A DNA stretch of 47,812 bases from a virus (IMGVR_UViG_649989947_000010:1-47812); one strand, 5' to 3'. Shown: positions 22,918 to 37,351, counted from the stretch's first letter. The notes: generated by a model from the letters alone, not told the origin. Translations and numbers: made by a program.

Positions 22918-24246
22918 CTGATGAATCCCCTAATGATTTTGGTAAAAATCATTAAGTTAAGGTGGATACACATCTTGTCATATGATCAAATGGTTTCGCG
23001 AAAAATCAATAATCAGACAACAAGATGTGCGAACTCGATATTTTACACGACTCTCTTTACCAATTCTGCCCCGAATTACACTTAAAACGACTCAACAGCT
23101 TAACGTTGGCTTGCCACGCATTACTTGACTGTAAAACTCTCACTCTTACCGAACTTGGCCGTAACCTGCCAACCAAAGCGAGAACAAAACATAACATCAA
23201 ACGAATCGACCGATTGTTAGGTAATCGTCACCTCCACAAAGAGCGACTCGCTGTATACCGTTGGCATGCTAGCTTTATCTGTTCGGGCAATACGATGCCC
23301 ATTGTACTTGTTGACTGGTCTGATATTCGTGAGCAAAAACGACTTATGGTATTGCGAGCTTCAGTCGCACTACACGGTCGTTCTGTTACTCTTTATGAGA
23401 AAGCGTTCCCGCTTTCAGAGCAATGTTCAAAGAAAGCTCATGACCAATTTCTAGCCGACCTTGCGAGCATTCTACCGAGTAACACCACACCGCTCATTGT
23501 CAGTGATGCTGGCTTTAAAGTGCCATGGTATAAATCCGTTGAGAAGCTGGGTTGGTACTGGTTAAGTCGAGTAAGAGGAAAAGTACAATATGCAGACCTA
23601 GGAGCGGAAAACTGGAAACCTATCAGCAACTTACATGATATGTCATCTAGTCACTCAAAGACTTTAGGCTATAAGAGGCTGACTAAAAGCAATCCAATCT
23701 CATGCCAAATTCTATTGTATAAATCTCGCTCTAAAGGCCGAAAAAATCAGCGCTCGACACGGACTCATTGTCACCACCCGTCACCTAAAATCTACTCAGC
23801 GTCGGCAAAGGAGCCATGGGTTCTAGCAACTAACTTACCTGTTGAAATTCGAACACCCAAACAACTTGTTAATATCTATTCGAAGCGAATGCAGATTGAA
23901 GAAACCTTCCGAGACTTGAAAAGTCCTGCCTACGGACTAGGCCTACGCCATAGCCGAACGAGCAGCTCAGAGCGTTTTGATATCATGCTGCTAATCGCCC
24001 TGATGCTTCAACTAACATGTTGGCTTGCGGGCGTTCATGCTCAGAAACAAGGTTGGGACAAGCACTTCCAGGCTAACACAGTCAGAAATCGAAACGTACT
24101 CTCAACAGTTCGCTTAGGCATGGAAGTTTTGCGGCATTCTGGCTACACAATAACAAGGGAAGACTTACTCGTGGCTGCAACCCTACTAGCTCAAAATTTA
24201 TTCACACATGGTTACGCTTTGGGGAAATTATGAGGGGATCTCTCAG
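22918..24246 (+). mobile_element. IS10 (IS4 family), complete 1329-bp copy
   Basis: Outside end CTGATGAATCCCCTAATGATTTTGG at 22918; inside end ...GGGGATCTCTCAG ending 24246; 402-aa transposase. Confidence 0.95.
23025..24233 (+). CDS. IS10 transposase
   Basis: 402 aa beginning MCELDILHDSLYQFCPELHLKRL, as recalled for IS10/Tn10 transposase. Confidence 0.95.
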   Translation: MCELDILHDSLYQFCPELHLKRLNSLTLACHALLDCKTLTLTELGRNLPTKARTKHNIKRIDRLLGNRHLHKERLAVYRWHASFICSGNTMPIVLVDWSDIREQKRLMVLRASVALHGRSVTLYEKAFPLSEQCSKKAHDQFLADLASILPSNTTPLIVSDAGFKVPWYKSVEKLGWYWLSRVRGKVQYADLGAENWKPISNLHDMSSSHSKTLGYKRLTKSNPISCQILLYKSRSKGRKNQRSTRTHCHHPSPKIYSASAKEPWVLATNLPVEIRTPKQLVNIYSKRMQIEETFRDLKSPAYGLGLRHSRTSSSERFDIMLLIALMLQLTCWLAGVHAQKQGWDKHFQANTVRNRNVLSTVRLGMEVLRHSGYTITREDLLVAATLLAQNLFTHGYALGKL

Positions 24247-28278: not shown

Positions 28279-29541
28279 ATGAGCACTTCAGCACAAAACC
28301 AATCAATCGAAAATGTATCTATCCCTGATGTCCTGAATGCCGGTATCCCGGCCATTATCCAGAACATCCGGGCCGCGCAACGCCGCGTTAGTTGTGATGA
28401 CCTCACAGCACGTTTTTTTGATAATGCGGTTCAGTCAGCGGAGATGCTTCACGCACAGCTTATTGATGTTTATAACGCAGAAGCTGATAGCCATAACTCC
28501 CTGGTAGATGCAGCTGAAAATATGCAGTTGGATCTCGGTCTGAAGGGTAAAGAAATTGAAGAGCTTCATCTGCAAATTGAACATTTGAAACGCCAGCAAC
28601 AGGACGCGATCGACGATGCGACGCATGACGCCAACCAGCGTGCTGATAATGCCGAACGTATAAGCATTGAGCTGGAAACAAAACTCAATGAAATGACCGC
28701 GATGGTTGAACTGCGGAACTCACAGATTTCAACGCTAAAATCTCAATATAAAGAGATCATGAAACTTGATCCTTTTAACCTTGAGAAACGCTATAACAAA
28801 GCTAAAAGCGAGCGACAGGAACTGCGTAAGCAGGTCGCCGACCTTAACCAACAGCTCAAAAAAACTATTAAAGATGCAAGCGAGGCGCGCGTGGCATTTG
28901 CTAATAAAAAAGCAGAGGTTACCGCGCTGGTTAATGAGAATGCCAAATTTGCGACGCTCAAGAAGGAAATGTATGGCATTACTGAGCGCCGTTTCCCTGC
29001 AAGCAAACTCCATCCGACGTTAGGGCAAATCTCATTCTTCCCGCGCCTCCTGGCTTATGGGATCTCATCGCCTAAAGAGTTCAATAACGAGCGTCCTTAT
29101 ATCGTTTCTAAGCTGGACTTTGCTTATCAGTTCTGCTGCGACATGGGCTATGCCATTGATATCCGTATCAACGAATGGTTGATGCCAAACTTCCAGCCGT
29201 TGGCAATTTTCCGCGAGTTCCAGCCGGAAGGTTGGGTAGAGTTCTTCCATGAATTGATCTGTAAAGAGATGGAAAGCCGCCGCCCGGAATTGGTCCGTCG
29301 AGTTGAGTGGGCGCAAGAGGTTATGTTGGCAGATGCAGAGCTGCCGTTCGAACCGGAATTCATTGATGATCTGGCAACTAAAGGGTTGCATACCCTGTTT
29401 GATGTGGTTACCCGCCGTCATGAGCAGTTGGTTGTCGAATTGGGTTTAGAGGAAACAGCGGCAAGAAGACTTCTCGATGTTTGCTATGCACGTAGCGATG
29501 CATGGGAAAAAGAGAACGGCGGCACTATTTACGTTCGCTGA
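28279..29541 (+). CDS. Coiled-coil protein with uncharacterised C-terminal domain (420 aa)
   Basis: Long heptad-like charged N-terminal region (residues ~90-220), then a ~200-aa globular domain; no recognised motif. Confidence 0.5.
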   Translation: MSTSAQNQSIENVSIPDVLNAGIPAIIQNIRAAQRRVSCDDLTARFFDNAVQSAEMLHAQLIDVYNAEADSHNSLVDAAENMQLDLGLKGKEIEELHLQIEHLKRQQQDAIDDATHDANQRADNAERISIELETKLNEMTAMVELRNSQISTLKSQYKEIMKLDPFNLEKRYNKAKSERQELRKQVADLNQQLKKTIKDASEARVAFANKKAEVTALVNENAKFATLKKEMYGITERRFPASKLHPTLGQISFFPRLLAYGISSPKEFNNERPYIVSKLDFAYQFCCDMGYAIDIRINEWLMPNFQPLAIFREFQPEGWVEFFHELICKEMESRRPELVRRVEWAQEVMLADAELPFEPEFIDDLATKGLHTLFDVVTRRHEQLVVELGLEETAARRLLDVCYARSDAWEKENGGTIYVR

Positions 29542-29613: not shown

Positions 29614-30120
29614 TTGAGTATTTTCAATAAACACGCACACCAGGAACGTCCGTACATCGTCATAGTAGATATTGATGGGACGATATCAGAGGCAACGGAA
29701 GACAGGCTGCATTTACTTCCACCACCTGGCAAAGGTGCATTAACAGAGCACTGGAACGAGTTTAACCTTGCCTGTGACACTGATGCTCCCATCACTCCAG
29801 TTATTGATATGGTGCGCCAGTTGTCCGGCATTTACACCCTCTGGTTTGTAACCGGGCGCTGTGAGATAGCCAGGGATAAAACACGAGCCTGGTTGCGTAA
29901 GCACGTAACAAACGGGGCTGAGCCTTTGCTATCTATGCGTCCTGCTACCGATGATAGAAATGACGGCCCAGCAAAGATTGATCTCCTTAAGAAAATTGGT
30001 CTAAGTAAAATCGCGTTCGCGCTGGAAGATAAGATTGAAGTGGCGCGTGTTTTCAGGAGTCACGGCGTACTTACGTTAATGGTCAGGGAGTATGAAAACG
30101 CGCTTCTCCATCAACAATAA
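29614..30120 (+). CDS. HAD-superfamily phosphatase/nucleotidase-like protein
   Basis: TTG start with strong RBS GAGGAGGG; VIVDIDGT (DxDGT) nucleophile motif. Confidence 0.55.
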   Translation: MSIFNKHAHQERPYIVIVDIDGTISEATEDRLHLLPPPGKGALTEHWNEFNLACDTDAPITPVIDMVRQLSGIYTLWFVTGRCEIARDKTRAWLRKHVTNGAEPLLSMRPATDDRNDGPAKIDLLKKIGLSKIAFALEDKIEVARVFRSHGVLTLMVREYENALLHQQ

Positions 30121-30136
30121 TTGCTCTAATAAATCT
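30120..30136 (+). promoter_or_regulatory. C1 operator-like site (ATTGCTCTAATAAATCT)
   Basis: 16/17; overlaps the stop of the HAD-like gene. Confidence 0.65.
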
Positions 30137-30218
30137 TGATTTTTAAAACAGAGAAAGTGAAAATAAAAACATGCCGCAAGGCGCGGCATGTATCCAATCA
30201 ATCACAGGAGCTGAAAAT

Positions 30219-30305
30219 ATGAACACGGCATTCAAAATCATTATGGCCGCGATCTATTTCTGGCTGTTCTCTATCACTTTTGGCGGCATTGTCGCGCATG
30301 GGTAA
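30219..30305 (+). CDS. 28-aa hydrophobic peptide
   Basis: MNTAFKIIMAAIYFWLFSITFGGIVAHG; RBS AGGAG 7 nt upstream; not in supplied ORF track (below length cutoff). Confidence 0.4.
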   Translation: MNTAFKIIMAAIYFWLFSITFGGIVAHG

Positions 30306-30314
30306 GGGGGATGC

Positions 30315-31043
30315 ATGAAAGGCGAAGTGAAAGAGCGCGGCATGATTTTCAACGATGAGATGGTCCGGGCCATCATCGAAGGAAGGAAAACGCAGACGCG
30401 GCGGATAATGAAAAATCAGCCTGCGGAAGTTGGTCCAGAAGCACCAGTGATGGTTAGAAAAATTGGTGCAGGTTTTCAGTGGTACGGGGCTGATGGTGTA
30501 AGCAGTGTCTTCAATTGCCCCTTTGGTATCGTCGGCGATCGAATTTGGGTTCGTGAAACATGGGCGATATTAGGCAATGAGGATGGTTGTAGTGTGGACT
30601 GGAACGACAACCTTTGTCGTGGTGATGAGAAGAACGCAGCAAGGATTTATCGGGCCAGTTGTGAGCAAAAGCCTGGTGATTACGGCTTATGGTCGATACC
30701 CGATGATGCCGACTGGAAACCTCACACTGTGAATGAAAAGTTTGATGGTGGGTGGCGTCCATCAATTCACATGCCGCGATGGGCATCACGCATTCTGTTG
30801 GAAATTACCAACGTGCGCGTTGAGCGGTTGAACGATATCAGCGAATGCGATGCAGGGGCTGAGGGCGTTCCGCCTGCTGGAAGTTTGCTTCCTGATTACC
30901 CGGAAACATTCCTTACTCCCAAGGGGGATTTCGCAATGGCCAAGGTTGCGTTCCAGCGTCTGTGGGAATCCATCTATGGTGAAGAAAGCTGGAACGCTAA
31001 TCCCTGGGTATGGGTAATTGAGTTTAAGCGCATTCAGGAATAA
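30315..31043 (+). CDS. Phage protein, possibly ASCH/PUA-like
   Basis: N-terminus MIFNDEMVRAIIEGRKTQTRR resembles ASCH GxKxxExR-type motif; weak. Confidence 0.35.
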   Translation: MKGEVKERGMIFNDEMVRAIIEGRKTQTRRIMKNQPAEVGPEAPVMVRKIGAGFQWYGADGVSSVFNCPFGIVGDRIWVRETWAILGNEDGCSVDWNDNLCRGDEKNAARIYRASCEQKPGDYGLWSIPDDADWKPHTVNEKFDGGWRPSIHMPRWASRILLEITNVRVERLNDISECDAGAEGVPPAGSLLPDYPETFLTPKGDFAMAKVAFQRLWESIYGEESWNANPWVWVIEFKRIQE

Positions 31044-31052
31044 ACCGTGAGT

Positions 31053-31232
31053 ATGCATCAAGTCGTCAGCTTTTCAGGTGACGGGATTGCCAGAATGTAT
31101 GCCGACAGCGACTACAGAAATTTGTATCAGGCGATGGTGCAGGCCAAGCGGTTTGATACTGGTTCGTGTTCCGAATCATGTGAAATCTGGGGTGACCAAT
31201 TGGAGTTGAAATTCGAAGAGGTTGTGGCATGA
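31053..31232 (+). CDS. Small hypothetical protein
   Basis: ORF in tightly packed operon. Confidence 0.3.
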   Translation: MHQVVSFSGDGIARMYADSDYRNLYQAMVQAKRFDTGSCSESCEIWGDQLELKFEEVVA

Positions 31233-31432
31233 CAATCGTAAAAACCCATACCGGTACCGTGATCACCAAAGATGGCCCGCAGGTAAAAAAACTGCACCAA
31301 ACAGAGCGGATGTGGGTCGTTGGCAAAAACGAGTTTTACCACAAAGAAACTGGACGCCGCCATTTTGCAGAAAATACGCGCCGCCGACTGCTGTTAGACA
31401 CCATCAAGCCTATCGAGGTGAAGCATGTTTAA
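31229..31432 (+). CDS. Small hypothetical protein
   Basis: ORF with overlapping stop/start to neighbours. Confidence 0.3.
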   Translation: MTIVKTHTGTVITKDGPQVKKLHQTERMWVVGKNEFYHKETGRRHFAENTRRRLLLDTIKPIEVKHV

Positions 31433-31664
31433 ACAGAACGAAAAAGCTATCGCTCAAATTGCTGATTATATCCCGCGTGCGTGCCGGGGTATGCAGTTGC
31501 AGGAAGCCAAAGCGCGCCTGGAGAAAAAAATTGCGCTCTATATTGATGACGGCTGTGATGCCGCCGTTCTTAACGAGGCGTTCGCACCAGCTCTTAACAG
31601 TCATACTCGGGAGTCCTTTCTTTCGTGCATCGCAGCGCAACTCCACCAAGGAGGCATCCAGTGA
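31425..31664 (+). CDS. Small hypothetical protein
   Basis: ORF with GTGA overlap to next gene. Confidence 0.3.
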   Translation: MFKQNEKAIAQIADYIPRACRGMQLQEAKARLEKKIALYIDDGCDAAVLNEAFAPALNSHTRESFLSCIAAQLHQGGIQ

Positions 31665-32305
31665 GTAACCGTTTTTACATGATGTGCTTGCGTGAAACTG
31701 TGGGTAATAACGCCTCATTCCATTGCCATAACGGCAATGGTTACAGTTCTGATATCGATCGCGCTCATGTTTACACGCTGGAAGAAGCCCAAAAAGCCTG
31801 GAATTGTGGGCGAGATATCGATCAGCCTGTTTGTGCCGATAGTGTGGATGCAATTGCTGTGTGGCACGTTGATTGCCAGTACATCCCTACAGAAAGCCTG
31901 ATTGAGTCAGATTGCACTGCGTATGTGGCCTACAAAAAAGGTAGCTGGAACGGCAACGATGTTTACTGGCTTCAACACGGTGGATTGCCAACAGATGATT
32001 TCAGTAAAGCGACCATCTTTAGCGTCGCCAACAAAAACGAACCAGGAATAGTTTGGTTGCCATTTCCCATTGCTGATGCAGCAAAGCGCCGGACGTTCAA
32101 TATCAATAACTTTAACCGCAGAACAATGGTTCAGGGCGCAGGTTTGGTCATGCCTGACTGGTTGAAAGAGCAGAACAGAAGAAAGAAGTCGCGAAGCGGG
32201 AAGGTGCGTTGGAATTGTCCGCATTGCGGAAAAATCACCTGGCAGTACAGCCCATATGATTTTGAAGGCTGTAGTGATTACAACTGTGAAGGATGGCGAG
32301 AATGA
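31661..32305 (+). CDS. Cys-rich hypothetical protein
   Basis: GTG start at 31661 with RBS AAGGAGG; C-terminal CPHCG...C..C cluster. Confidence 0.4.
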   Translation: MSNRFYMMCLRETVGNNASFHCHNGNGYSSDIDRAHVYTLEEAQKAWNCGRDIDQPVCADSVDAIAVWHVDCQYIPTESLIESDCTAYVAYKKGSWNGNDVYWLQHGGLPTDDFSKATIFSVANKNEPGIVWLPFPIADAAKRRTFNINNFNRRTMVQGAGLVMPDWLKEQNRRKKSRSGKVRWNCPHCGKITWQYSPYDFEGCSDYNCEGWRE

Positions 32306-32985
32306 CAATTGACTATCAGGTACTGCGCGAGGCGGCGGAACAGGCAACGCAAGATGAATGGGTAGCATATATTTTGCCGGGGCAAAACGGCACTTATCCT
32401 GCGCATACGTCTGAGGGTAGGCATTGCGGATACTTTATTGACTGGCCTGGCATTGATGGACAGAGAAACGCTGGTGCCAATGCCCGTTATATCGCGGCTA
32501 TCCCACCCAAAGTTGTGCTGGCTCTACTGGATGAAATTAAGCGCCTGGAGGACACAAATATTGATGCTATGTGTCGAATTGCAGAGCTTGAGACTAATCT
32601 CGCGGCGCTGGTGGCGGAGAATGTGGGGCTAAAGGCGATATGTGATGACCGTCGCAGGTTCATCATGAATGGGGTGCAGATGGGTTATATCAAGGTGCCA
32701 GCAGCGGAAACAGATCCAGACCTTGAGACAATTCGCATTGCTATATCACCACAAAAGCCCATTCCAGCCACTGATGCTTTCCTGTCTGAAGTGCGGGCGC
32801 AGGGGGTGGATGCTGCTATAGAAGCTGCAAAAAATCTGGTGGTCCAAGAATATGAGTATAAGGATTTCAAAGCGGCGCAGAGTGATTGCTGTATGCACCC
32901 TGGTTCAGACCTGGTAGGGAAGGTTGAAATGACTGAGTGGTTAGTTGACTTTGCTGCCCAGCTTCGCAAAGGAGGCAACCAGTGA
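32293..32985 (+). CDS. Ea22-like early protein, paralog 1
   Basis: N-terminus DYQVLREAAEQATQDEW shared with next gene (DHQALREAAEQAMHDDW). Confidence 0.45.
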   Translation: MARMTIDYQVLREAAEQATQDEWVAYILPGQNGTYPAHTSEGRHCGYFIDWPGIDGQRNAGANARYIAAIPPKVVLALLDEIKRLEDTNIDAMCRIAELETNLAALVAENVGLKAICDDRRRFIMNGVQMGYIKVPAAETDPDLETIRIAISPQKPIPATDAFLSEVRAQGVDAAIEAAKNLVVQEYEYKDFKAAQSDCCMHPGSDLVGKVEMTEWLVDFAAQLRKGGNQ

Positions 32986-33557
32986 GCAAAATTGACCATC
33001 AGGCACTGCGTGAGGCGGCAGAGCAGGCAATGCATGACGACTGGGGATTTGACGCGGACCTTTTCCATGAGCTGGTAACACCATCGATTGTGCTGGAACT
33101 GCTGGATGAACAGGAAAGAAACCAGCAATACATCAAACGTCGCGACCAGGAGAACGAGGATATTGCGCTAACGGTAGGGAAACTGTTAATCGAAAACGGT
33201 CAGCTTGTTGCCGATACGCTACGCCACTTAGCTGATAACGAAATCGACTCTGATTATTTTGCTATCACCTCAACGAATGAGAACGGTACTGAAATTGATC
33301 ATGAGATGGCTATTACCGATTACGCACTGCAAGCTGCCGGAACTGTAGACGAATTGGTTGCAGCGCTGGAATCCGCAGAGAAGCGCATAGCAGAACTGTC
33401 TGCTAGCCACAGCAAATTGCGCGACACAATGGCTGGCATCCACAACACAATCCGAATGGATGGCGGATATACGCCACTGACAGCAATCCTTAACGCTGCT
33501 AAACGCGCATATGAAGAATCAGCAAGCGCAGCTGGCATTCGCATCAAAGGAGAGTGA
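32982..33557 (+). CDS. Ea22-like early protein, paralog 2
   Basis: Shared N-terminal motif; coiled-coil middle. Confidence 0.45.
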   Translation: MSKIDHQALREAAEQAMHDDWGFDADLFHELVTPSIVLELLDEQERNQQYIKRRDQENEDIALTVGKLLIENGQLVADTLRHLADNEIDSDYFAITSTNENGTEIDHEMAITDYALQAAGTVDELVAALESAEKRIAELSASHSKLRDTMAGIHNTIRMDGGYTPLTAILNAAKRAYEESASAAGIRIKGE

Positions 33558-33558
33558 T

Positions 33559-34074
33559 ATGGCGTTAACACACCGCGAACTCTGTCAGATTGCGTACAAG
33601 TTCCTTAAGCGCAACGGGTTCAAGGTTTGTTTTCATGACCGCTTTATAGCTGTAACCAGTACCGGAGAACAGCCAGATGCTATGGGATTCAGAAATTCAG
33701 CATCATGCCTGATAGAGGCGAAATGTTCTCGTGCTGACTTGTTGGCAGATAGAAAAAAGCGTTTTCGTAAAAATCCGTCTCTTGGAATGGGAGACTGGCG
33801 ATTCTTTATTAGTGAGCCGGGAATTATTTCAATTGAGGATTTACCACCTGGCTGGGGATTACTTCACGTTGTTAACGGAAGAGTACGGAAAGTACATGGG
33901 TGGCCCAAGGGTAATTGCTGTTGGGGTAATCCTGACGATAAGCCATTTACTGGAAATAAGCAGGTTGAATGCGATTACATGTTATCTGCATTAAGGCGCA
34001 TGGAGTTGAGAGGGCACCTTAATGAAATATATGACGGTGTAATTGTTAATAAGAAAGAAGGAAACGCGGCATGA
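33559..34074 (+). CDS. Putative PD-(D/E)xK-fold nuclease
   Basis: QPDAMGF ... CLIEAKCSRADL gives PD...(E)AK arrangement; RBS AAGGAGAG. Confidence 0.35.
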   Translation: MALTHRELCQIAYKFLKRNGFKVCFHDRFIAVTSTGEQPDAMGFRNSASCLIEAKCSRADLLADRKKRFRKNPSLGMGDWRFFISEPGIISIEDLPPGWGLLHVVNGRVRKVHGWPKGNCCWGNPDDKPFTGNKQVECDYMLSALRRMELRGHLNEIYDGVIVNKKEGNAA

Positions 34075-34478
34075 ACACTTTCACCGACAAAGAATTGATT
34101 AAAGAAATCAAAGAACGTATAGGCAGCCTGGACGTGCGAGACAATATTGAGCGCCGTGCTTATGAAATAGCGTTAGCCTCGCTGGAAGCTGAACCGGTGG
34201 CATGGCAGGTCACAATCACAAAAGACGGCCTGGACTCAGCCTCTATTATTTACCGTGACTGTGCAGAGAAAGATACATGGGTTCGGATACATGAGACACT
34301 TGGTTCTGTCGTACATGTCACCCCGCTTTACATGGCGTCGCCAGTGCCTGTAGTGCCGGAAGAAAAAACAATGCCTAATCCTCTTAGCATGTACGCGGTT
34401 GATGCTGTTGCCGCTATTGCAGAGGTAAGAGGCTGGAATGCCTGCCGCGCGGCTATGCTTCATGGGAAAGGAAAGTGA
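34071..34478 (+). CDS. Hypothetical protein sharing N-terminal module with 34911 gene
   Basis: YEIALASLEAEPVAW vs YKIALASLEAEPVAY in the 423-aa protein. Confidence 0.4.
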   Translation: MNTFTDKELIKEIKERIGSLDVRDNIERRAYEIALASLEAEPVAWQVTITKDGLDSASIIYRDCAEKDTWVRIHETLGSVVHVTPLYMASPVPVVPEEKTMPNPLSMYAVDAVAAIAEVRGWNACRAAMLHGKGK

Positions 34479-34479
34479 T

Positions 34480-34701
34480 ATGGCTAACTCATTACTTGAA
34501 ACCTGCAACAACTGGCAGATTCAGAGGGCGGAGATTTTATCTCGCAATCCAGATATGGCAATGACAATTGATAATCTGGACACGCTAATTGAACGGACCG
34601 TGCGTTCTGCAATTGATATAGCACATCGAGTGGATTGGGATTTCAGAGAAGCGGAGCGGCTTGCTAAAGAGCAGGAGAAAGCAGCGGGTAAAGGAGACTG
34701 A
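34480..34701 (+). CDS. Small hypothetical protein
   Basis: ATG at 34480 overlapping upstream stop. Confidence 0.3.
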   Translation: MANSLLETCNNWQIQRAEILSRNPDMAMTIDNLDTLIERTVRSAIDIAHRVDWDFREAERLAKEQEKAAGKGD

Positions 34702-34702
34702 T

Positions 34703-34900
34703 ATGGATAAAAACACCACTGCTTACTGGAATCTGTCACTTGATACCGAATGCCCAAAATGCGGTCACAATTTCGATCTGCTTTGTGATCCAGATTTCTG
34801 GGAATTTTCTGGAGCAAAACAGGCATGTGAAGAAATAAAAGGTTACGAAACATGCTGTCCAGAATGTAACCATGAATTTAAAACAGATTTTGTGTATTGA
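34703..34900 (+). CDS. Small zinc-ribbon protein
   Basis: CPKCGH ... CCPECNH. Confidence 0.35.
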   Translation: MDKNTTAYWNLSLDTECPKCGHNFDLLCDPDFWEFSGAKQACEEIKGYETCCPECNHEFKTDFVY

Positions 34901-34910
34901 GGCATAACGA

Positions 34911-36182
34911 ATGACCACTTTTACTAAAGAACAATTAATAGAGATGATTAAGCGCAATATAACGATTATGGATCGTTATCCTGATTTAGTAACTGCACAA
35001 ATGGATCTGGAAGTATACAAAATTGCGCTGGCATCACTGGAAGCAGAACCAGTTGCTTATATTTTCAAACATCCGGCCGGGAAATTATTCTGGGCTTTAA
35101 CGGATGAAAGCAATAAAGAGCAAGCGGACGTTATTCCTGTTTATGCTGCCGCGCCTGCGTCGGTTGTGCCGGATAATGCATCAGAGCCTCTTGCTTATGC
35201 TTACAAAGAGCTTACGCCTGAGATTATGCGCAACCATTTAGCTGTATTCGAGCGATATGGAATAGCCCCAAACGATAGCTCTACCACAATTCAGGCACTG
35301 CGAATCGCGCTGGATGGTATAGAGCGGAGCGACGCCATGCTTCAGTCCGGAAACTTTCGGGAAAACAAGAATTCGTCAACCAATAATTTTCGGGAAATCG
35401 CGGAAACGTCAACCAACTATCCGGTAATTCCTAGTGAGGTGTTGTCCGCAATCCTGAAGGTTGCCAAGATTCGTGCCGATTTCGATGATTTTGACGGTGA
35501 CAGGCGAGGTATCGATGATTGTCTGGATGAGGCTGAGCAAGAGCTTATCGTTACCATTAACAAATATGCCAGTCAGTTGGCAGCAGAACCGATAGCGACT
35601 AATGACGTTCGAGAGCAAACAGCCGTTCCGCCAGTTCCGGTAATACAGGCTGATGTCGCGCAGGCAATTGAAAAACTCAAACGGAAATTAGTGGAATGCA
35701 ATCGCTATAACTACTGCGCAGATGCAGTTAAAGGCGTTGAGGATGCCTGCCGTGCTGTTAGCTATAGCCATGCCGACAATCAACCAGCATCTGGCAACCA
35801 GGCAGCCGAATCCAATCGCGGTAATGAGTGGACCGGCAATCCTGATATTGATAACGCCATCATCATGCTCGATCGCATAGATACGCTGGAAAGTTGCGAT
35901 GATGACCGTATTGAGGCTGTTAAGGCTGTTTTGCGTAGACTAGCTGGCAACTCTCCGGTAACTCCGGATGGTTGGATAAGCTGTAGTGAGCGAATGCCGG
36001 ATACCAAAACAGCCGTTCTTGTTGCCGTGGAGTTTGACAGGAAAGGTGACTGGCGAATGAAATGGGCTACTTACATCCCGGGGCATCCTGACGCTAATGA
36101 TGGGTGGATAATTCCTGGTGCGTCGTGGAAACCGTCACACTGGATGCCGCTACCAGAACCGCCGCAGGAGGTGAATCAATGA
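34911..36182 (+). CDS. Hypothetical protein (423 aa) with Ea22-like N-terminal module
   Basis: Shared N-terminal motif with 34071 gene; no recognised catalytic motif. Confidence 0.45.
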   Translation: MTTFTKEQLIEMIKRNITIMDRYPDLVTAQMDLEVYKIALASLEAEPVAYIFKHPAGKLFWALTDESNKEQADVIPVYAAAPASVVPDNASEPLAYAYKELTPEIMRNHLAVFERYGIAPNDSSTTIQALRIALDGIERSDAMLQSGNFRENKNSSTNNFREIAETSTNYPVIPSEVLSAILKVAKIRADFDDFDGDRRGIDDCLDEAEQELIVTINKYASQLAAEPIATNDVREQTAVPPVPVIQADVAQAIEKLKRKLVECNRYNYCADAVKGVEDACRAVSYSHADNQPASGNQAAESNRGNEWTGNPDIDNAIIMLDRIDTLESCDDDRIEAVKAVLRRLAGNSPVTPDGWISCSERMPDTKTAVLVAVEFDRKGDWRMKWATYIPGHPDANDGWIIPGASWKPSHWMPLPEPPQEVNQ

Positions 36183-36262
36183 GCTGGCCTGAAGCATTCA
36201 CCACGGTAGGAATTGTGATGGCGGCAGCACTGGGTTTGTATTCAATTTGTCGCTGGTGGTAA
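36179..36262 (+). CDS. 27-aa hydrophobic peptide, translationally coupled (ATGA overlap)
   Basis: MSWPEAFTTVGIVMAAALGLYSICRWW; RBS GGAGGTG; not in ORF track. Confidence 0.4.
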   Translation: MSWPEAFTTVGIVMAAALGLYSICRWW

Positions 36263-36264
36263 CG

Positions 36265-36498
36265 ATGGGAAAAATAACTTTTGTAGTCGAATTTGAGGAT
36301 GGTAAAGAGCCACCTGTTAGCGCCAATCTTGATGTTGCTGGTGGCAGGCTTGTTTCGGTTCTATTTGGTGACTACCGAGATGATTTCTTCCAACCAGAAG
36401 AAGTTGATGTGGTGCGAGAGGCATTAAACGAGTTAAGTGTTGATAACGATGATGCTCATGCGGAAATCATCCAAAAAATGGAGCTGCTAACTCACTAA
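36265..36498 (+). CDS. Small acidic hypothetical protein
   Basis: ORF 36247..36498 trimmed to internal ATG. Confidence 0.3.
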   Translation: MGKITFVVEFEDGKEPPVSANLDVAGGRLVSVLFGDYRDDFFQPEEVDVVREALNELSVDNDDAHAEIIQKMELLTH

Positions 36499-36546
36499 AT
36501 TATCAATTATGGTGCTATCACCTACGACACCGAGAGAAAATTTATA

Positions 36547-36669
36547 ATGTCAAAAGTAAATGTTTTGATTTTTTCAGCAATTGTTGGCTTTGGTTTTACT
36601 GCCGGAGTGCAGATTTATATTACGTGGGAAAAAATCATCAACTACGCATGGAGTTGTTTTATTAAGTGA
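36547..36669 (+). CDS. 40-aa hydrophobic peptide
   Basis: MSKVNVLIFSAIVGFGFTAGVQIYITWEKIINYAWSCFIK; weak RBS. Confidence 0.3.
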   Translation: MSKVNVLIFSAIVGFGFTAGVQIYITWEKIINYAWSCFIK

Positions 36670-36676
36670 GGTAAGT

Positions 36677-36970
36677 ATGTGGAGAGGTAATAGTCATGGC
36701 AAAAGCCAGATGATACTTACCGAATATCAGCTCGACCACAAAACCAATAAATCACGTTCAGTATATTTGCTTCGCCACAATAGCCGCGTAAGGAATACCG
36801 TACTGGAGCAAAATCTGACCGTTGAAATGGATAATTACGGGGGCTTCAAGCCAACAATATCGCTTGATGATTTTCCTCGTGGTTTAAGCGAAAGAGAAGC
36901 AATGCTGAAATTAGCAGAATGGCTACAAAGATTAAGCATTGCTATTGAAGATAACTGGTCTGAACCTTAA
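36677..36970 (+). CDS. Small hypothetical protein
   Basis: ATG at 36677 with RBS GAGGTAAG. Confidence 0.35.
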   Translation: MWRGNSHGKSQMILTEYQLDHKTNKSRSVYLLRHNSRVRNTVLEQNLTVEMDNYGGFKPTISLDDFPRGLSEREAMLKLAEWLQRLSIAIEDNWSEP

Positions 36971-36976
36971 ATTAAT

Positions 36977-37351
36977 ATGATGACACTAAAACATTTTCTT
37001 GACCGCCCATTATGGGCGGCAGCCGCAGGCTATGACTTTAATTATATGGATTGCATGTCTTATACTGCCAATGCATACGACCATTCGTTCAGCCTGCTGT
37101 TTAATTCTTTAAGAATATTGCCGGAAACAGAAGTTGGAGAGCTTCATTTATGGATATTGGGCTTTATCGCGGCTGTCGTTGGTATTGCTGTATGGCCTTT
37201 TATTTTCTGGCTGGTGGCTGTTGTAGTGTGGTTTAAGTGCAAGACATACCGGAGAAAGTATTTCTTAGGTGATGGAATGACTGATATTGCCAAAATGAAC
37301 ATTGAAAAATGGACTAAGGAATGTGAAAAGAAATGGCGCAAAAAGAAATGA
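36977..37351 (+). CDS. Membrane protein (124 aa)
   Basis: Hydrophobic stretch LWILGFIAAVVGIAVWPFIFWLVAVVVWF, basic C-terminus. Confidence 0.4.
   Translation: MMTLKHFLDRPLWAAAAGYDFNYMDCMSYTANAYDHSFSLLFNSLRILPETEVGELHLWILGFIAAVVGIAVWPFIFWLVAVVVWFKCKTYRRKYFLGDGMTDIAKMNIEKWTKECEKKWRKKK

What the first reader, a model, noticed from the sequence alone, without database searches (positions are those of the whole stretch)
30219..36669. Three unannotated short hydrophobic peptide ORFs with ribosome-binding sites
30219-30305 (28 aa, RBS AGGAG), 36179-36262 (27 aa, ATGA overlap with upstream stop, RBS GGAGGTG) and 36547-36669 (40 aa) each encode a single predicted membrane helix. Such peptides are often regulators of host membrane proteins or toxins and fall below the ORF-track length cutoff.
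Basis: seen in the sequence. Interest (0 to 1): 0.35.

Follow-up and report, generated by a model that had tools for sequence, protein, structure and literature searches.

The report
Small membrane-peptide genes in P1-like phage operon
Two of the three tiny hydrophobic reading frames are genuine, conserved phage genes for single-helix membrane peptides, one of them from a widespread family missing from the curated family libraries searched; the third is only plausible, and the function of all three is unknown.

Summary
The window is a P1-like phage-plasmid.

ORF1 (28 aa) is the first cistron behind the C1 operator and promoter. A diverged Salmonella P1-like plasmid keeps operator, promoter, 5' hairpin, SD and a homologous ORF at the same position (pN/pS 0.32 in frame, about 0.85 out of frame). 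It is a real gene.

ORF2 (27 aa) belongs to a family, M[S/T/N/I]WPEAF plus one helix, usually 27 aa. I found 57 peptide variants in P1-like elements and lambdoid Stx phages (933W, ArgO145). The start almost always overlaps the upstream stop (ATGA). pN/pS is 0.45 in frame and about 1.1 out of frame, and the motif shows synonymous variation. It has no Pfam, NCBIfam or PHROG model and is unannotated in the phage records inspected.

ORF3 (40 aa, PHROG 5525) stays open and has one in-frame indel allele, but it lacks a canonical SD and shows no selection signal. Its coding status is unresolved.

The regulator-or-toxin function is untested. I found no antitoxin-RNA promoter near ORF1, and no holin or known small-regulator family match for any of the three. 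Interest is modest.

The parts
30120..30136 (+). C1 repressor operator (ATTGCTCTAATAAATCT), equivalent to P1 OpmgT/Op88 and P7 Op(hea)
   Evidence: One mismatch to the consensus. There are 11 such sites in the window against 0.19 expected. An operator is annotated at the same position in P1 and P7.
30136..30164 (+). Predicted sigma-70 promoter (-35 TTGATT 30136-30141, 17-nt spacer, -10 GAAAAT 30159-30164), equivalent to P1pmgT of P1
   Evidence: It corresponds by position to the promoter annotated in NC_005856, and the sequence was read. The simple consensus scan did not flag it. The same -35 is kept in the diverged Salmonella plasmid L284. This is a predicted promoter, not a mapped one.
30169..30191 (+). 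Stem-loop at the predicted 5' end of the operon mRNA (ACATGCCGC-aaggc-GCGGCATGT); on the minus strand it also reads as a terminator-like hairpin followed by TTTTATTTT
   Evidence: Fold of -17.2 kcal/mol, z = -2.75. Terminator-like hit on the minus strand. L284 has a hairpin of different sequence at the same place.
30206..30210 (+). Shine-Dalgarno AGGAG for ORF1, 8 nt before the ATG, in an unstructured stretch
   Evidence: GGAG is present at the equivalent place in L284.
30219..30305 (+). ORF1: 28-aa single-helix peptide MNTAFKIIMAAIYFWLFSITFGGIVAHG, first cistron of the C1-controlled operon. Its TAA abuts the SD (AAGGGGGA) of the next gene (ATG at 30315).
   Evidence: Intact in 74 of 77 viral contigs, and the common polymorphisms are synonymous. 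Against the syntenic 46-aa homolog in L284, pN/pS is 0.32 in frame and 0.86/0.83 in the other frames; differences by codon position are 9/5/15. The 44-aa upstream extension carries a stop in 3 sequences.
36167..36173 (+). Shine-Dalgarno GGAGGTG for ORF2, inside the 3' end of the DUF551 gene
   Evidence: GGAGG-type sequences precede nearly all family members, behind several unrelated upstream genes.
36179..36262 (+). ORF2: 27-aa peptide MSWPEAFTTVGIVMAAALGLYSICRWW, member of the M[S/T/N/I]WPEAF single-helix family. ATGA overlap with the upstream stop; its TAA lies 2 nt before the next gene's ATG (36265).
   Evidence: 202 of 204 pattern matches in viral contigs open a 23-34-codon ORF, giving 57 distinct peptides, 46 of them 27 aa. 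The motif shows synonymous variation. pN/pS is 0.45 in frame and 1.11/1.16 in the other frames, which carry stops in all 27 alleles. One allele has an in-frame 9-nt indel. Homologs occur in 933W and ArgO145.
36547..36669 (+). ORF3: 40-aa hydrophobic ORF MSKVNVLIFSAIVGFGFTAGVQIYITWEKIINYAWSCFIK (PHROG 5525). Its TGA lies inside the SD (GTGAGGT) of the next gene (ATG at 36677). Coding status unresolved.
   Evidence: PHROG 5525, E = 1.2e-24. Open in 50 of 53 loci but with 7 synonymous and 19 nonsynonymous variants. The most diverged allele (43 aa, in-frame 9-nt insertion) gives ratios of 0.85, 0.73 and 0.60 in the three frames. No canonical SD.

Best explanation
The three ORFs are cistrons of a long, plus-strand accessory operon of a P1-like phage-plasmid. 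A C1-repressor operator and promoter directly after pap control this operon.

In a lysogen C1 should keep the operon silent. On derepression the mRNA starts at a 5' stem-loop, and ORF1 is translated first from a good, unstructured SD. ORF1's stop abuts the next gene's SD.

ORF2 is translated by coupling to the upstream DUF551 gene (ATGA overlap plus its own SD) and ends 2 nt before the next start.

Both products are very short peptides that consist almost entirely of one transmembrane helix. ORF2 additionally has a conserved N-terminal W-P-E-A-F cap and a basic/aromatic C-terminal end (CRWW or CRWG). By the positive-inside rule that end would sit in the cytoplasm.

The most likely mode of action is inferred, not shown: insertion into the inner membrane and helix-helix binding to a host or phage membrane protein during early lytic growth.

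ORF3 may be a third peptide of this kind, restricted to P1-like elements, but it may also be a non-coding spacer that happens to be open.

Shown: the anatomy, conservation of the frames, and frame-specific purifying selection for ORF1 and ORF2. Inferred: the timing of expression (from the P1/P7 operator annotation), membrane insertion, topology and target binding.
For: Identity and operon context.

ORF1: a syntenic diverged homolog with conserved operator, -35, hairpin and SD; pN/pS 0.32 in frame against 0.86/0.83 in the other frames; a third-position excess of differences (9/5/15). The ORF is intact in 74 of 77 contigs with 8 synonymous and 10 nonsynonymous variants, against an expected synonymous fraction of 0.24. 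In the 46-aa lineage the helix is conserved while the tail varies.

ORF2: 57 peptide variants of 23-34 aa behind at least 8 unrelated upstream genes. Start codons interchange between ATG and GTG. The second codon is always A-N-C, which preserves the ATGA overlap. One allele has an in-frame 9-nt indel. The WPEAF codons vary synonymously. pN/pS is 0.45 in frame against about 1.1. As a negative control, only 1 of 120 chance matches to the same pattern in unrelated genomes gives such an ORF.

Hydrophobic helix in all three.

No stable alternative leader structure on the plus strand (z = -0.9).
Against: There is no direct evidence of translation, membrane localisation or phenotype for any of the three.

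ORF3 shows no purifying selection in any frame, has no canonical SD, and has no homolog below about 75% identity.

9 of 101 ORF2-family loci, all of the SJ46-type allele, have ATA in place of ATG.

An ORF1 relic that has lost promoter, SD and start to an IS1 insertion is still about 93% identical. Low diversity within the main lineage is therefore not evidence of selection.

The P1 reference annotation lists no gene between pap and pmgT.

The EHEC Sakai Ribo-seq supplements contain no matching peptide. This is only weakly informative, because the operon would be repressed in lysogens.
Confidence: 0.75

Rival explanations
1. The ORFs are chance open frames in untranslated intergenic spacers or leaders. 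Their hydrophobicity is a by-product of T-rich sequence, and no peptide is made.
For: This remains realistic for ORF3: 7 synonymous and 19 nonsynonymous variants against an expected synonymous fraction of 0.23; ratios of 0.85, 0.73 and 0.60 in the three frames; no canonical SD; a narrow and shallow distribution. About 9% of all 20-60-codon ORFs in the window pass the same hydrophobicity threshold.
Against: Rejected for ORF1 and ORF2 by frame-specific purifying selection, in-frame indels, start-codon interchange and retention across unrelated contexts. For ORF3, the frame is open in 50 of 53 loci. Its most diverged allele has a 9-nt (in-frame) insertion, while the adjacent non-coding gap differs by 1 nt in length and by roughly 30% in sequence by eye.
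Confidence: 0.15
2. The ORFs serve only as translational couplers or leader ORFs. Ribosomes translating them open or deliver ribosomes to the next gene's start, and the peptide sequence itself is irrelevant.
For: All three stops abut or overlap the next gene's SD or start (TAA-GGGGGA-N3-ATG; TAA-CG-ATG; the TGA inside GTGAGGT). The ATGA overlap of ORF2 is preserved through the invariant A of codon 2. ORF1 is the first ORF of the transcript.
Against: The amino-acid sequence is under selection in ORF1 and ORF2 (pN/pS 0.32 and 0.45), and the WPEAF motif is kept through synonymous codon changes. ORF1 stays intact where the downstream gene is replaced by a convergent hsdR, so nothing is left to couple to. 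ORF2 homologs are the last cistron before a terminator-like hairpin in ArgO145. There is no alternative-structure or attenuator signal in the ORF1 leader (z = -0.9).
Confidence: 0.07
3. One or more of them is the toxin of a type I toxin-antitoxin module (hok/sok, ibs/sib or tisB/istR style). In that case a small hydrophobic killer peptide is held in check by an antisense RNA.
For: The size and hydrophobicity match type I toxins. The minus strand opposite ORF1 folds better than shuffles (z = -2.7) and ends in a hairpin plus U-run at 30191-30169. In 933W the ORF2 homolog lies next to hokW/sokW.
Against: No promoter-like site on the minus strand within or near ORF1. The equivalent hairpin in the diverged lineage has no clear U-run on the minus strand. 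No Rfam antitoxin RNA at any of the three ORFs, since the only antisense-RNA hit is IS10 RNA-OUT about 7 kb away. All three are internal, translationally coupled cistrons of a repressor-controlled operon, not autonomous loci. No match to any toxin family.
Confidence: 0.03

Closest known systems
Bacterial small single-pass membrane proteins that modulate larger membrane proteins (e.g. AcrZ, MgrB, MgtR, KdpF, CydX/CydH); comparison from general knowledge
   Same: Size (about 27-49 aa), one transmembrane helix, often missed by annotation, and action expected through helix-helix contacts.
   Different: No sequence relationship. Only sub-threshold hits were found (ORF3 against CydH/YnhF, E = 0.15, 12 bits against a cut-off of 30). 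These ORFs are phage-borne, are controlled by a prophage repressor instead of a host stress regulon, and have no known partner protein.
PHROG 5525 (phage protein family of unknown function, 40-residue profile)
   Same: ORF3 matches the profile end to end (positions 1-40 of 40, E = 1.2e-24).
   Different: The family has no assigned function and appears limited to P1-like elements. Membership shows only that others have called the same ORF, not that it is translated.
Type I toxins (Hok, TisB, IbsC, ShoB, DinQ)
   Same: Short hydrophobic peptides of 19-50 aa on mobile elements and prophages.
   Different: No antisense RNA promoter near ORF1, no autonomous locus, and translational coupling inside an operon. 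Toxicity is untested.
Small early-operon host-takeover peptides of lambdoid phages (lambda Kil, 47 aa; CIII, 54 aa); comparison from general knowledge
   Same: Small products of repressor-controlled early operons. The ORF2 family sits in the ead/Ea22-DUF551 part of such an operon in Stx phages.
   Different: As far as I know, Kil and CIII are not single transmembrane helices. There is no sequence similarity, and no phenotype is known for the ORF2 family.

Membership tests
M[S/T/N/I]WPEAF small-peptide family (defined here; ORF2) | N-terminal M-x-W-P-E-A-[F/L] followed by one hydrophobic helix; total length 23-34 aa, mostly 27 | tested here: met
   ORF2 is MSWPEAFTTVGIVMAAALGLYSICRWW. The family has 57 peptide variants, 46 of them 27 aa.
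M[S/T/N/I]WPEAF small-peptide family (defined here; ORF2) | Start codon overlapping the upstream gene's stop (ATGA or TAATG), with an SD inside the upstream gene | tested here: met
   ATGA at 36179-36182 and GGAGGTG at 36167-36173. The same layout occurs behind at least 8 different upstream genes and in 933W and ArgO145.
M[S/T/N/I]WPEAF small-peptide family (defined here; ORF2) | Frame-specific purifying selection | tested here: met
   pN/pS is 0.45 in frame and 1.11/1.16 in the other frames, which carry stops in 27 of 27 alleles. The motif codons vary synonymously.
PHROG 5525 (ORF3) | Significant full-length match to the family profile | tested here: met
   E = 1.2e-24, residues 1-40 on profile positions 1-40 of 40.
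Type I toxin-antitoxin systems | Antisense or divergent small RNA with its own promoter that overlaps the toxin mRNA | tested here: not met
   No promoter-like site on the minus strand at ORF1 and no Rfam antitoxin RNA at any of the three ORFs. Only a terminator-like hairpin is present.
Type I toxin-antitoxin systems | Autonomous locus in which toxin translation is tightly repressed | tested here: not met
   The ORFs are internal, coupled cistrons. ORF1 and ORF2 have exposed SDs.
Type I toxin-antitoxin systems | Growth arrest or membrane depolarisation on expression | not testable with these tools
   This needs inducible expression in E. coli.
Leader peptide / transcription-attenuation uORF (ORF1) | Alternative RNA structures, or a terminator between the uORF and the first structural gene | tested here: not met
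   Beyond the 5' hairpin the leader folds no better than shuffles (z = -0.9). There is no plus-strand terminator between 30219 and 30315. Only 9 nt separate the stop from the next ATG.
Leader peptide / transcription-attenuation uORF (ORF1) | The peptide sequence is unconstrained apart from regulatory codons | tested here: not met
   The helix is under purifying selection (pN/pS 0.32) and is conserved in the 46-aa lineage while the tail varies.
Known small membrane regulator families (CydH/YnhF and others in Pfam and NCBIfam) | Score above the curated family cut-off | tested here: not met
   The best hits are far below their cut-offs: DUF7512 at 16.4 bits against 27, YnhF at 12.1 against 30, 60KD_IMP at 12.8 against 35.

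The most novel reading that the evidence does not exclude
ORF2 defines a previously unrecognised but widespread family of 27-residue membrane peptides (M-x-WPEAF plus one helix). Temperate enterobacterial phages carry it, from P1-like phage-plasmids to the Shiga-toxin phages of EHEC. It is translationally coupled to the distal genes of their repressor-controlled early operons. In this reading it has a specific membrane target, for example a host transporter, protease, division protein or receptor, and contributes to host takeover, exclusion of other phages or defence. ORF1 would be a second, P1-lineage-specific peptide of this kind, made first whenever C1 repression is lifted.
Probability: 0.4. 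Interest if true: 0.55.

Novelty: new member of a known kind. Interest (0 to 1): 0.4.

Why it matters
Small membrane peptides are an under-annotated class, and each characterised example has turned out to regulate a larger membrane machine.

The ORF2 family is present, unannotated, in heavily studied genomes (933W and other Stx phages, P1-like plasmids that spread resistance genes). It has no model in the three curated libraries searched (Pfam, NCBIfam, PHROGs). Its tight conservation makes it a clean candidate for functional work.

ORF1 shows that the C1-controlled pmgT/hea operon of P1-type phages begins with a conserved peptide gene that the reference annotation omits.

In practical terms the result supplies precise coordinates, alleles and a sequence pattern for re-annotation. 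It does not yet change any concept.

Tried and rejected
(1) Nucleotide conservation among close relatives as evidence of coding. Rejected, because all P1-like relatives are 97-99% identical across the whole region. An IS1-truncated, promoterless ORF1 relic is still about 93% identical.

(2) The 44-aa long form of ORF1, as annotated in SJ46 and on at least 1000 contigs. Rejected in favour of the 28-aa form. Its ATG sits at the predicted transcript start inside the hairpin with no SD, and the extension carries a Q9* stop in 3 of 74 sequences.

I replaced it with tblastn and anchored DNA scans.

(4) Large protein searches for ORF3 and ORF1 found nothing below 88% identity. The ORF1 breakthrough came from a weak tblastn plasmid hit (E = 0.6) that proved to be syntenic.

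(5) An Rfam scan found no RNA family at any of the three ORFs.

(6) Attenuator or riboswitch-like leader for ORF1: no significant structure.

(7) Literature: no paper contains the MSWPEAF or WPEAF peptide, nothing relevant turned up on pmgT, and the EHEC Sakai Ribo-seq supplements hold no match.

(8) The species-representative genome scan with the degenerate 20-mer was badly specified. It served only as a negative control.

(9) My first two population scripts had an off-by-one anchoring error and an index error. They were discarded and redone.


Full report
WHAT THE WINDOW IS

The 7.8-kb stretch around the finding matches P1-type phages and phage-plasmids (P1, P7, SJ46, RCS47, vB_EcoM-813R1) and many IncY plasmids of E. 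coli at 95-97% identity, in a patchy, mosaic way. The gene order is pmgS (28279-29541), pap (29614-30120), and then a long run of plus-strand genes: an ASCH-like gene, two ead/Ea22-like genes, a 423-aa DUF551 protein and many hypothetical proteins.

Directly after pap lies ATTGCTCTAATAAATCT (30120-30136). It has one mismatch to the C1 repressor operator consensus. The window holds 11 such sites against 0.19 expected. P1 and P7 annotate an operator (OpmgT/Op88, Op(hea)) and sigma-70 promoters at exactly this place. The three ORFs therefore sit in a repressor-controlled accessory operon.

THE OBSERVATION

Coordinates, lengths, the AGGAG and GGAGGTG Shine-Dalgarno sequences and the ATGA overlap are all as stated. 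ORF3 has no canonical SD.

Each peptide has one hydrophobic stretch (Kyte-Doolittle 17-residue maximum of about 1.8). Each fills an otherwise empty gap on the coding strand.

Across the whole window only three small ORFs combine a gap position, a hydrophobic helix and an SD, against about 0.5 expected. Two of them are ORF1 and ORF2.

All three exact peptides are in public protein sets. SJ46 annotates the long form of ORF1 as "membrane protein", and SJ46 and 813R1 annotate ORF3. ORF3 matches PHROG 5525. RefSeq/PGAP records and the curated P1 and P7 annotations omit them.

ORF1 (30219-30305)

The promoter predicted by correspondence with P1 (-35 TTGATT at 30136-30141, -10 GAAAAT at 30159-30164) puts the transcript start at about 30170. 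That is the first base of a strong stem-loop (-17 kcal/mol, z = -2.75). An unstructured spacer, AGGAG and the ATG follow.

The 44-aa form starts inside that hairpin, has no SD, and carries a stop codon in 3 of 74 related sequences. The 28-aa ORF is therefore the conserved unit.

In 77 viral contigs anchored on the hairpin, the ORF is intact in 74. There are 8 synonymous and 10 nonsynonymous variant alleles, against an expected synonymous fraction of 0.24, and the common polymorphisms are synonymous. That signal is weak, and the lineage is young. An IS1-truncated, promoterless relic next to a convergent hsdR in an IncF plasmid is still about 93% identical.

The decisive evidence is a diverged Salmonella P1-like plasmid (L284). 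Between pmgS and the next operon it has the operator, the same -35, a hairpin of different sequence, GGAG, and an ORF, MHTVFKLAMAAFYIWIFTIVFTGIAKATPVNASEVGVRTIYCDLGE. Over the first 25 codons nucleotide identity is 46 of 75, and 14 of the first 24 residues are identical. pS is 0.84 and pN is 0.26. pN/pS is 0.32 in frame against 0.86 and 0.83 in the other frames. Differences by codon position are 9/5/15.

That lineage is itself populous (389 contigs), and its variants keep the helix while the tail changes.

In both lineages the stop abuts the SD of the next gene. The mosaic boundary lies immediately after the stop: at least four different downstream modules follow it, including a convergent type I hsdR, and ORF1 is intact in those too.

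ORF1 is therefore a real gene for a single-helix peptide and the first cistron of the operon.

ORF2 (36179-36262)

Alignment of relatives showed a second allele, MSWPEAFAIVGVAMAIAAIFIFWG. It differs by an in-frame 9-nt indel and many substitutions, while the flanks are nearly identical.

Anchored and codon-degenerate scans of viral contigs then revealed a family:

- 202 of 204 pattern matches open a 23-34-codon ORF.
- There are 57 distinct peptides, 46 of them exactly 27 aa.
- All begin M-[S/T/N/I]-W-P-E-A-[F/L], continue with a variable hydrophobic helix, and mostly end in CRWG or CRWW.
- The motif codons vary synonymously (CCT/CCG/CCC, GAA/GAG, GCA/GCC/GCG/GCT, TTC/TTT).
- Start codons are ATG or GTG. 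The second codon is always A-N-C, which keeps the ATGA overlap with the upstream TGA.
- At least eight unrelated upstream genes and several different downstream contexts occur.
- Over codons 8-27, pN/pS is 0.45 in frame against 1.11 and 1.16, and both other frames carry stops in all 27 alleles.

Chance matches to the same 20-mer in unrelated genomes gave such an ORF once in 120.

tblastn finds the family in 88 phage records at 54-100% identity, including 933W (MTWPEAFANVGTVMAVVLVVYSICRWR, just upstream of hokW/sokW) and ArgO145, where it is the last cistron before a terminator-like hairpin. It is unannotated in every phage record I inspected.

There is no Pfam, NCBIfam or PHROG model, and no paper contains the motif.

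One caveat: 9 of 101 loci, all of the SJ46-type allele, have ATA instead of ATG.

ORF3 (36547-36669)

It always occurs in the same module, between the 77-aa and 97-aa genes, and only in P1-like elements (225 plasmids).

The frame is open in 50 of 53 loci. The most diverged allele (43 aa) has an in-frame 9-nt insertion, whereas the adjacent non-coding gap differs by 1 nt in length and by roughly 30% in sequence by eye.

Against that, the variants are 7 synonymous and 19 nonsynonymous (expected synonymous fraction 0.23). The most diverged pair gives ratios of 0.85, 0.73 and 0.60 in the three frames, so no frame is favoured. There is no canonical SD. I put the chance that it is a translated gene at about one half.

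MECHANISM

Shown: the operon anatomy, the coupling layout, and protein-level constraint on the helices of ORF1 and ORF2.

Inferred: expression only on C1 derepression, insertion into the inner membrane, topology (for ORF2, acidic N-terminus out and basic C-terminus in), and action by helix-helix binding to a membrane protein.

Rivals:

- A pure coupling or leader role is contradicted by the peptide-level selection, by ORF1 surviving without a downstream gene, and by the ORF2 homolog ending an operon in ArgO145. The leader shows no attenuator-like structure.
- A type I toxin is not supported. There is no antisense promoter and no Rfam antitoxin RNA, the loci are not autonomous, and the minus-strand U-run is not conserved in L284.
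- Chance ORFs are excluded for ORF1 and ORF2, but not for ORF3.

COMPARISON AND NOVELTY

These are what small single-pass membrane proteins look like, but they belong to no described family. ORF3's PHROG has no assigned function. I file the finding as new members of a known kind.

The most useful product is the ORF2 family definition and the re-annotation of ORF1 as the first gene of the C1-controlled operon. Interest is moderate: a solid, testable lead in very well-studied phages, but with no function and no conceptual surprise yet.

Noticed in passing
window 30303-30315; L179 3990-4170: A recombination or mosaic breakpoint lies immediately 3' of the ORF1 stop. At least four unrelated downstream modules follow it in relatives, including a convergent type I hsdR gene. 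In an IncF conjugative plasmid the same P1-derived flank sits next to hsdR and is cut by IS1 at ORF1 codon 3-4. The P1 reference record also notes that this stretch matches sequence downstream of the hsd loci of R124/3 and EcoDXXI.
   Followed up: partly
window 30169-30191, minus strand: The hairpin in front of ORF1 reads on the minus strand as an intrinsic-terminator-like element (10-bp stem followed by TTTTATTTT). It could stop convergent transcription, for example from hsdR in hsd-carrying relatives. The equivalent hairpin in the diverged Salmonella plasmid has a different sequence and no clear minus-strand U-run.
   Followed up: partly
window 22963-23032 (-); 12119-12191, 12197-12269 and 14273-14345 (+): Rfam finds an IS10 RNA-OUT antisense RNA, which implies an IS10/Tn10 insertion in this element, and three tRNA genes.
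   Followed up: no
window 8158, 11434, 11445, 21867, 27979, 28028, 30120, 42924, 47197, 47661, 47744: Eleven C1-operator-like sites (at most 3 mismatches to ATTGCTCTAATAAATTT) against 0.19 expected by chance. Together they map the repressor-controlled units of this element.
   Followed up: no
window 21763-21855 (+): This is the only other small ORF in the window that combines an SD, a hydrophobic stretch and a mostly intergenic position (30 aa, MLWVVVIDVAIVSLLEIDDGDSTASHLLNI). It lies next to an operator-like site at 21867-21883.
   Followed up: no
L007, L021, L068, L070 and related loci (SJ46-type ORF2 allele): 9 of 101 ORF2-family loci, all carrying the 24-aa SJ46-type allele, have ATA instead of ATG at the start (TAATAA instead of TAATGA). 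This is either a decaying copy or initiation by reinitiation at a non-canonical codon.
   Followed up: partly
window 36977-37351 (+): This 124-aa ORF two genes downstream of ORF3 has a long hydrophobic stretch (…LHLWILGFIAAVVGIAVWPFIFWLVAVVVWF…) and no Pfam match. The module may therefore encode several membrane proteins.
   Followed up: no
window 34071-34478 and 34911-36182 (+): The N-termini of the 135-aa ORF and the 423-aa DUF551 ORF share a similar module (…KE(L/Q)LI…EIALASLEAEPVA…). This suggests a duplicated or exchanged N-terminal domain within the operon.
   Followed up: no
window 36581-36676 (+), frame of the 97-aa gene: The reading frame of the gene that starts at ATG 36677 is open upstream to a TTG at 36581 and overlaps most of ORF3 in another frame. 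Relatives annotate the ATG at 36677, but the true start has not been verified.
   Followed up: no
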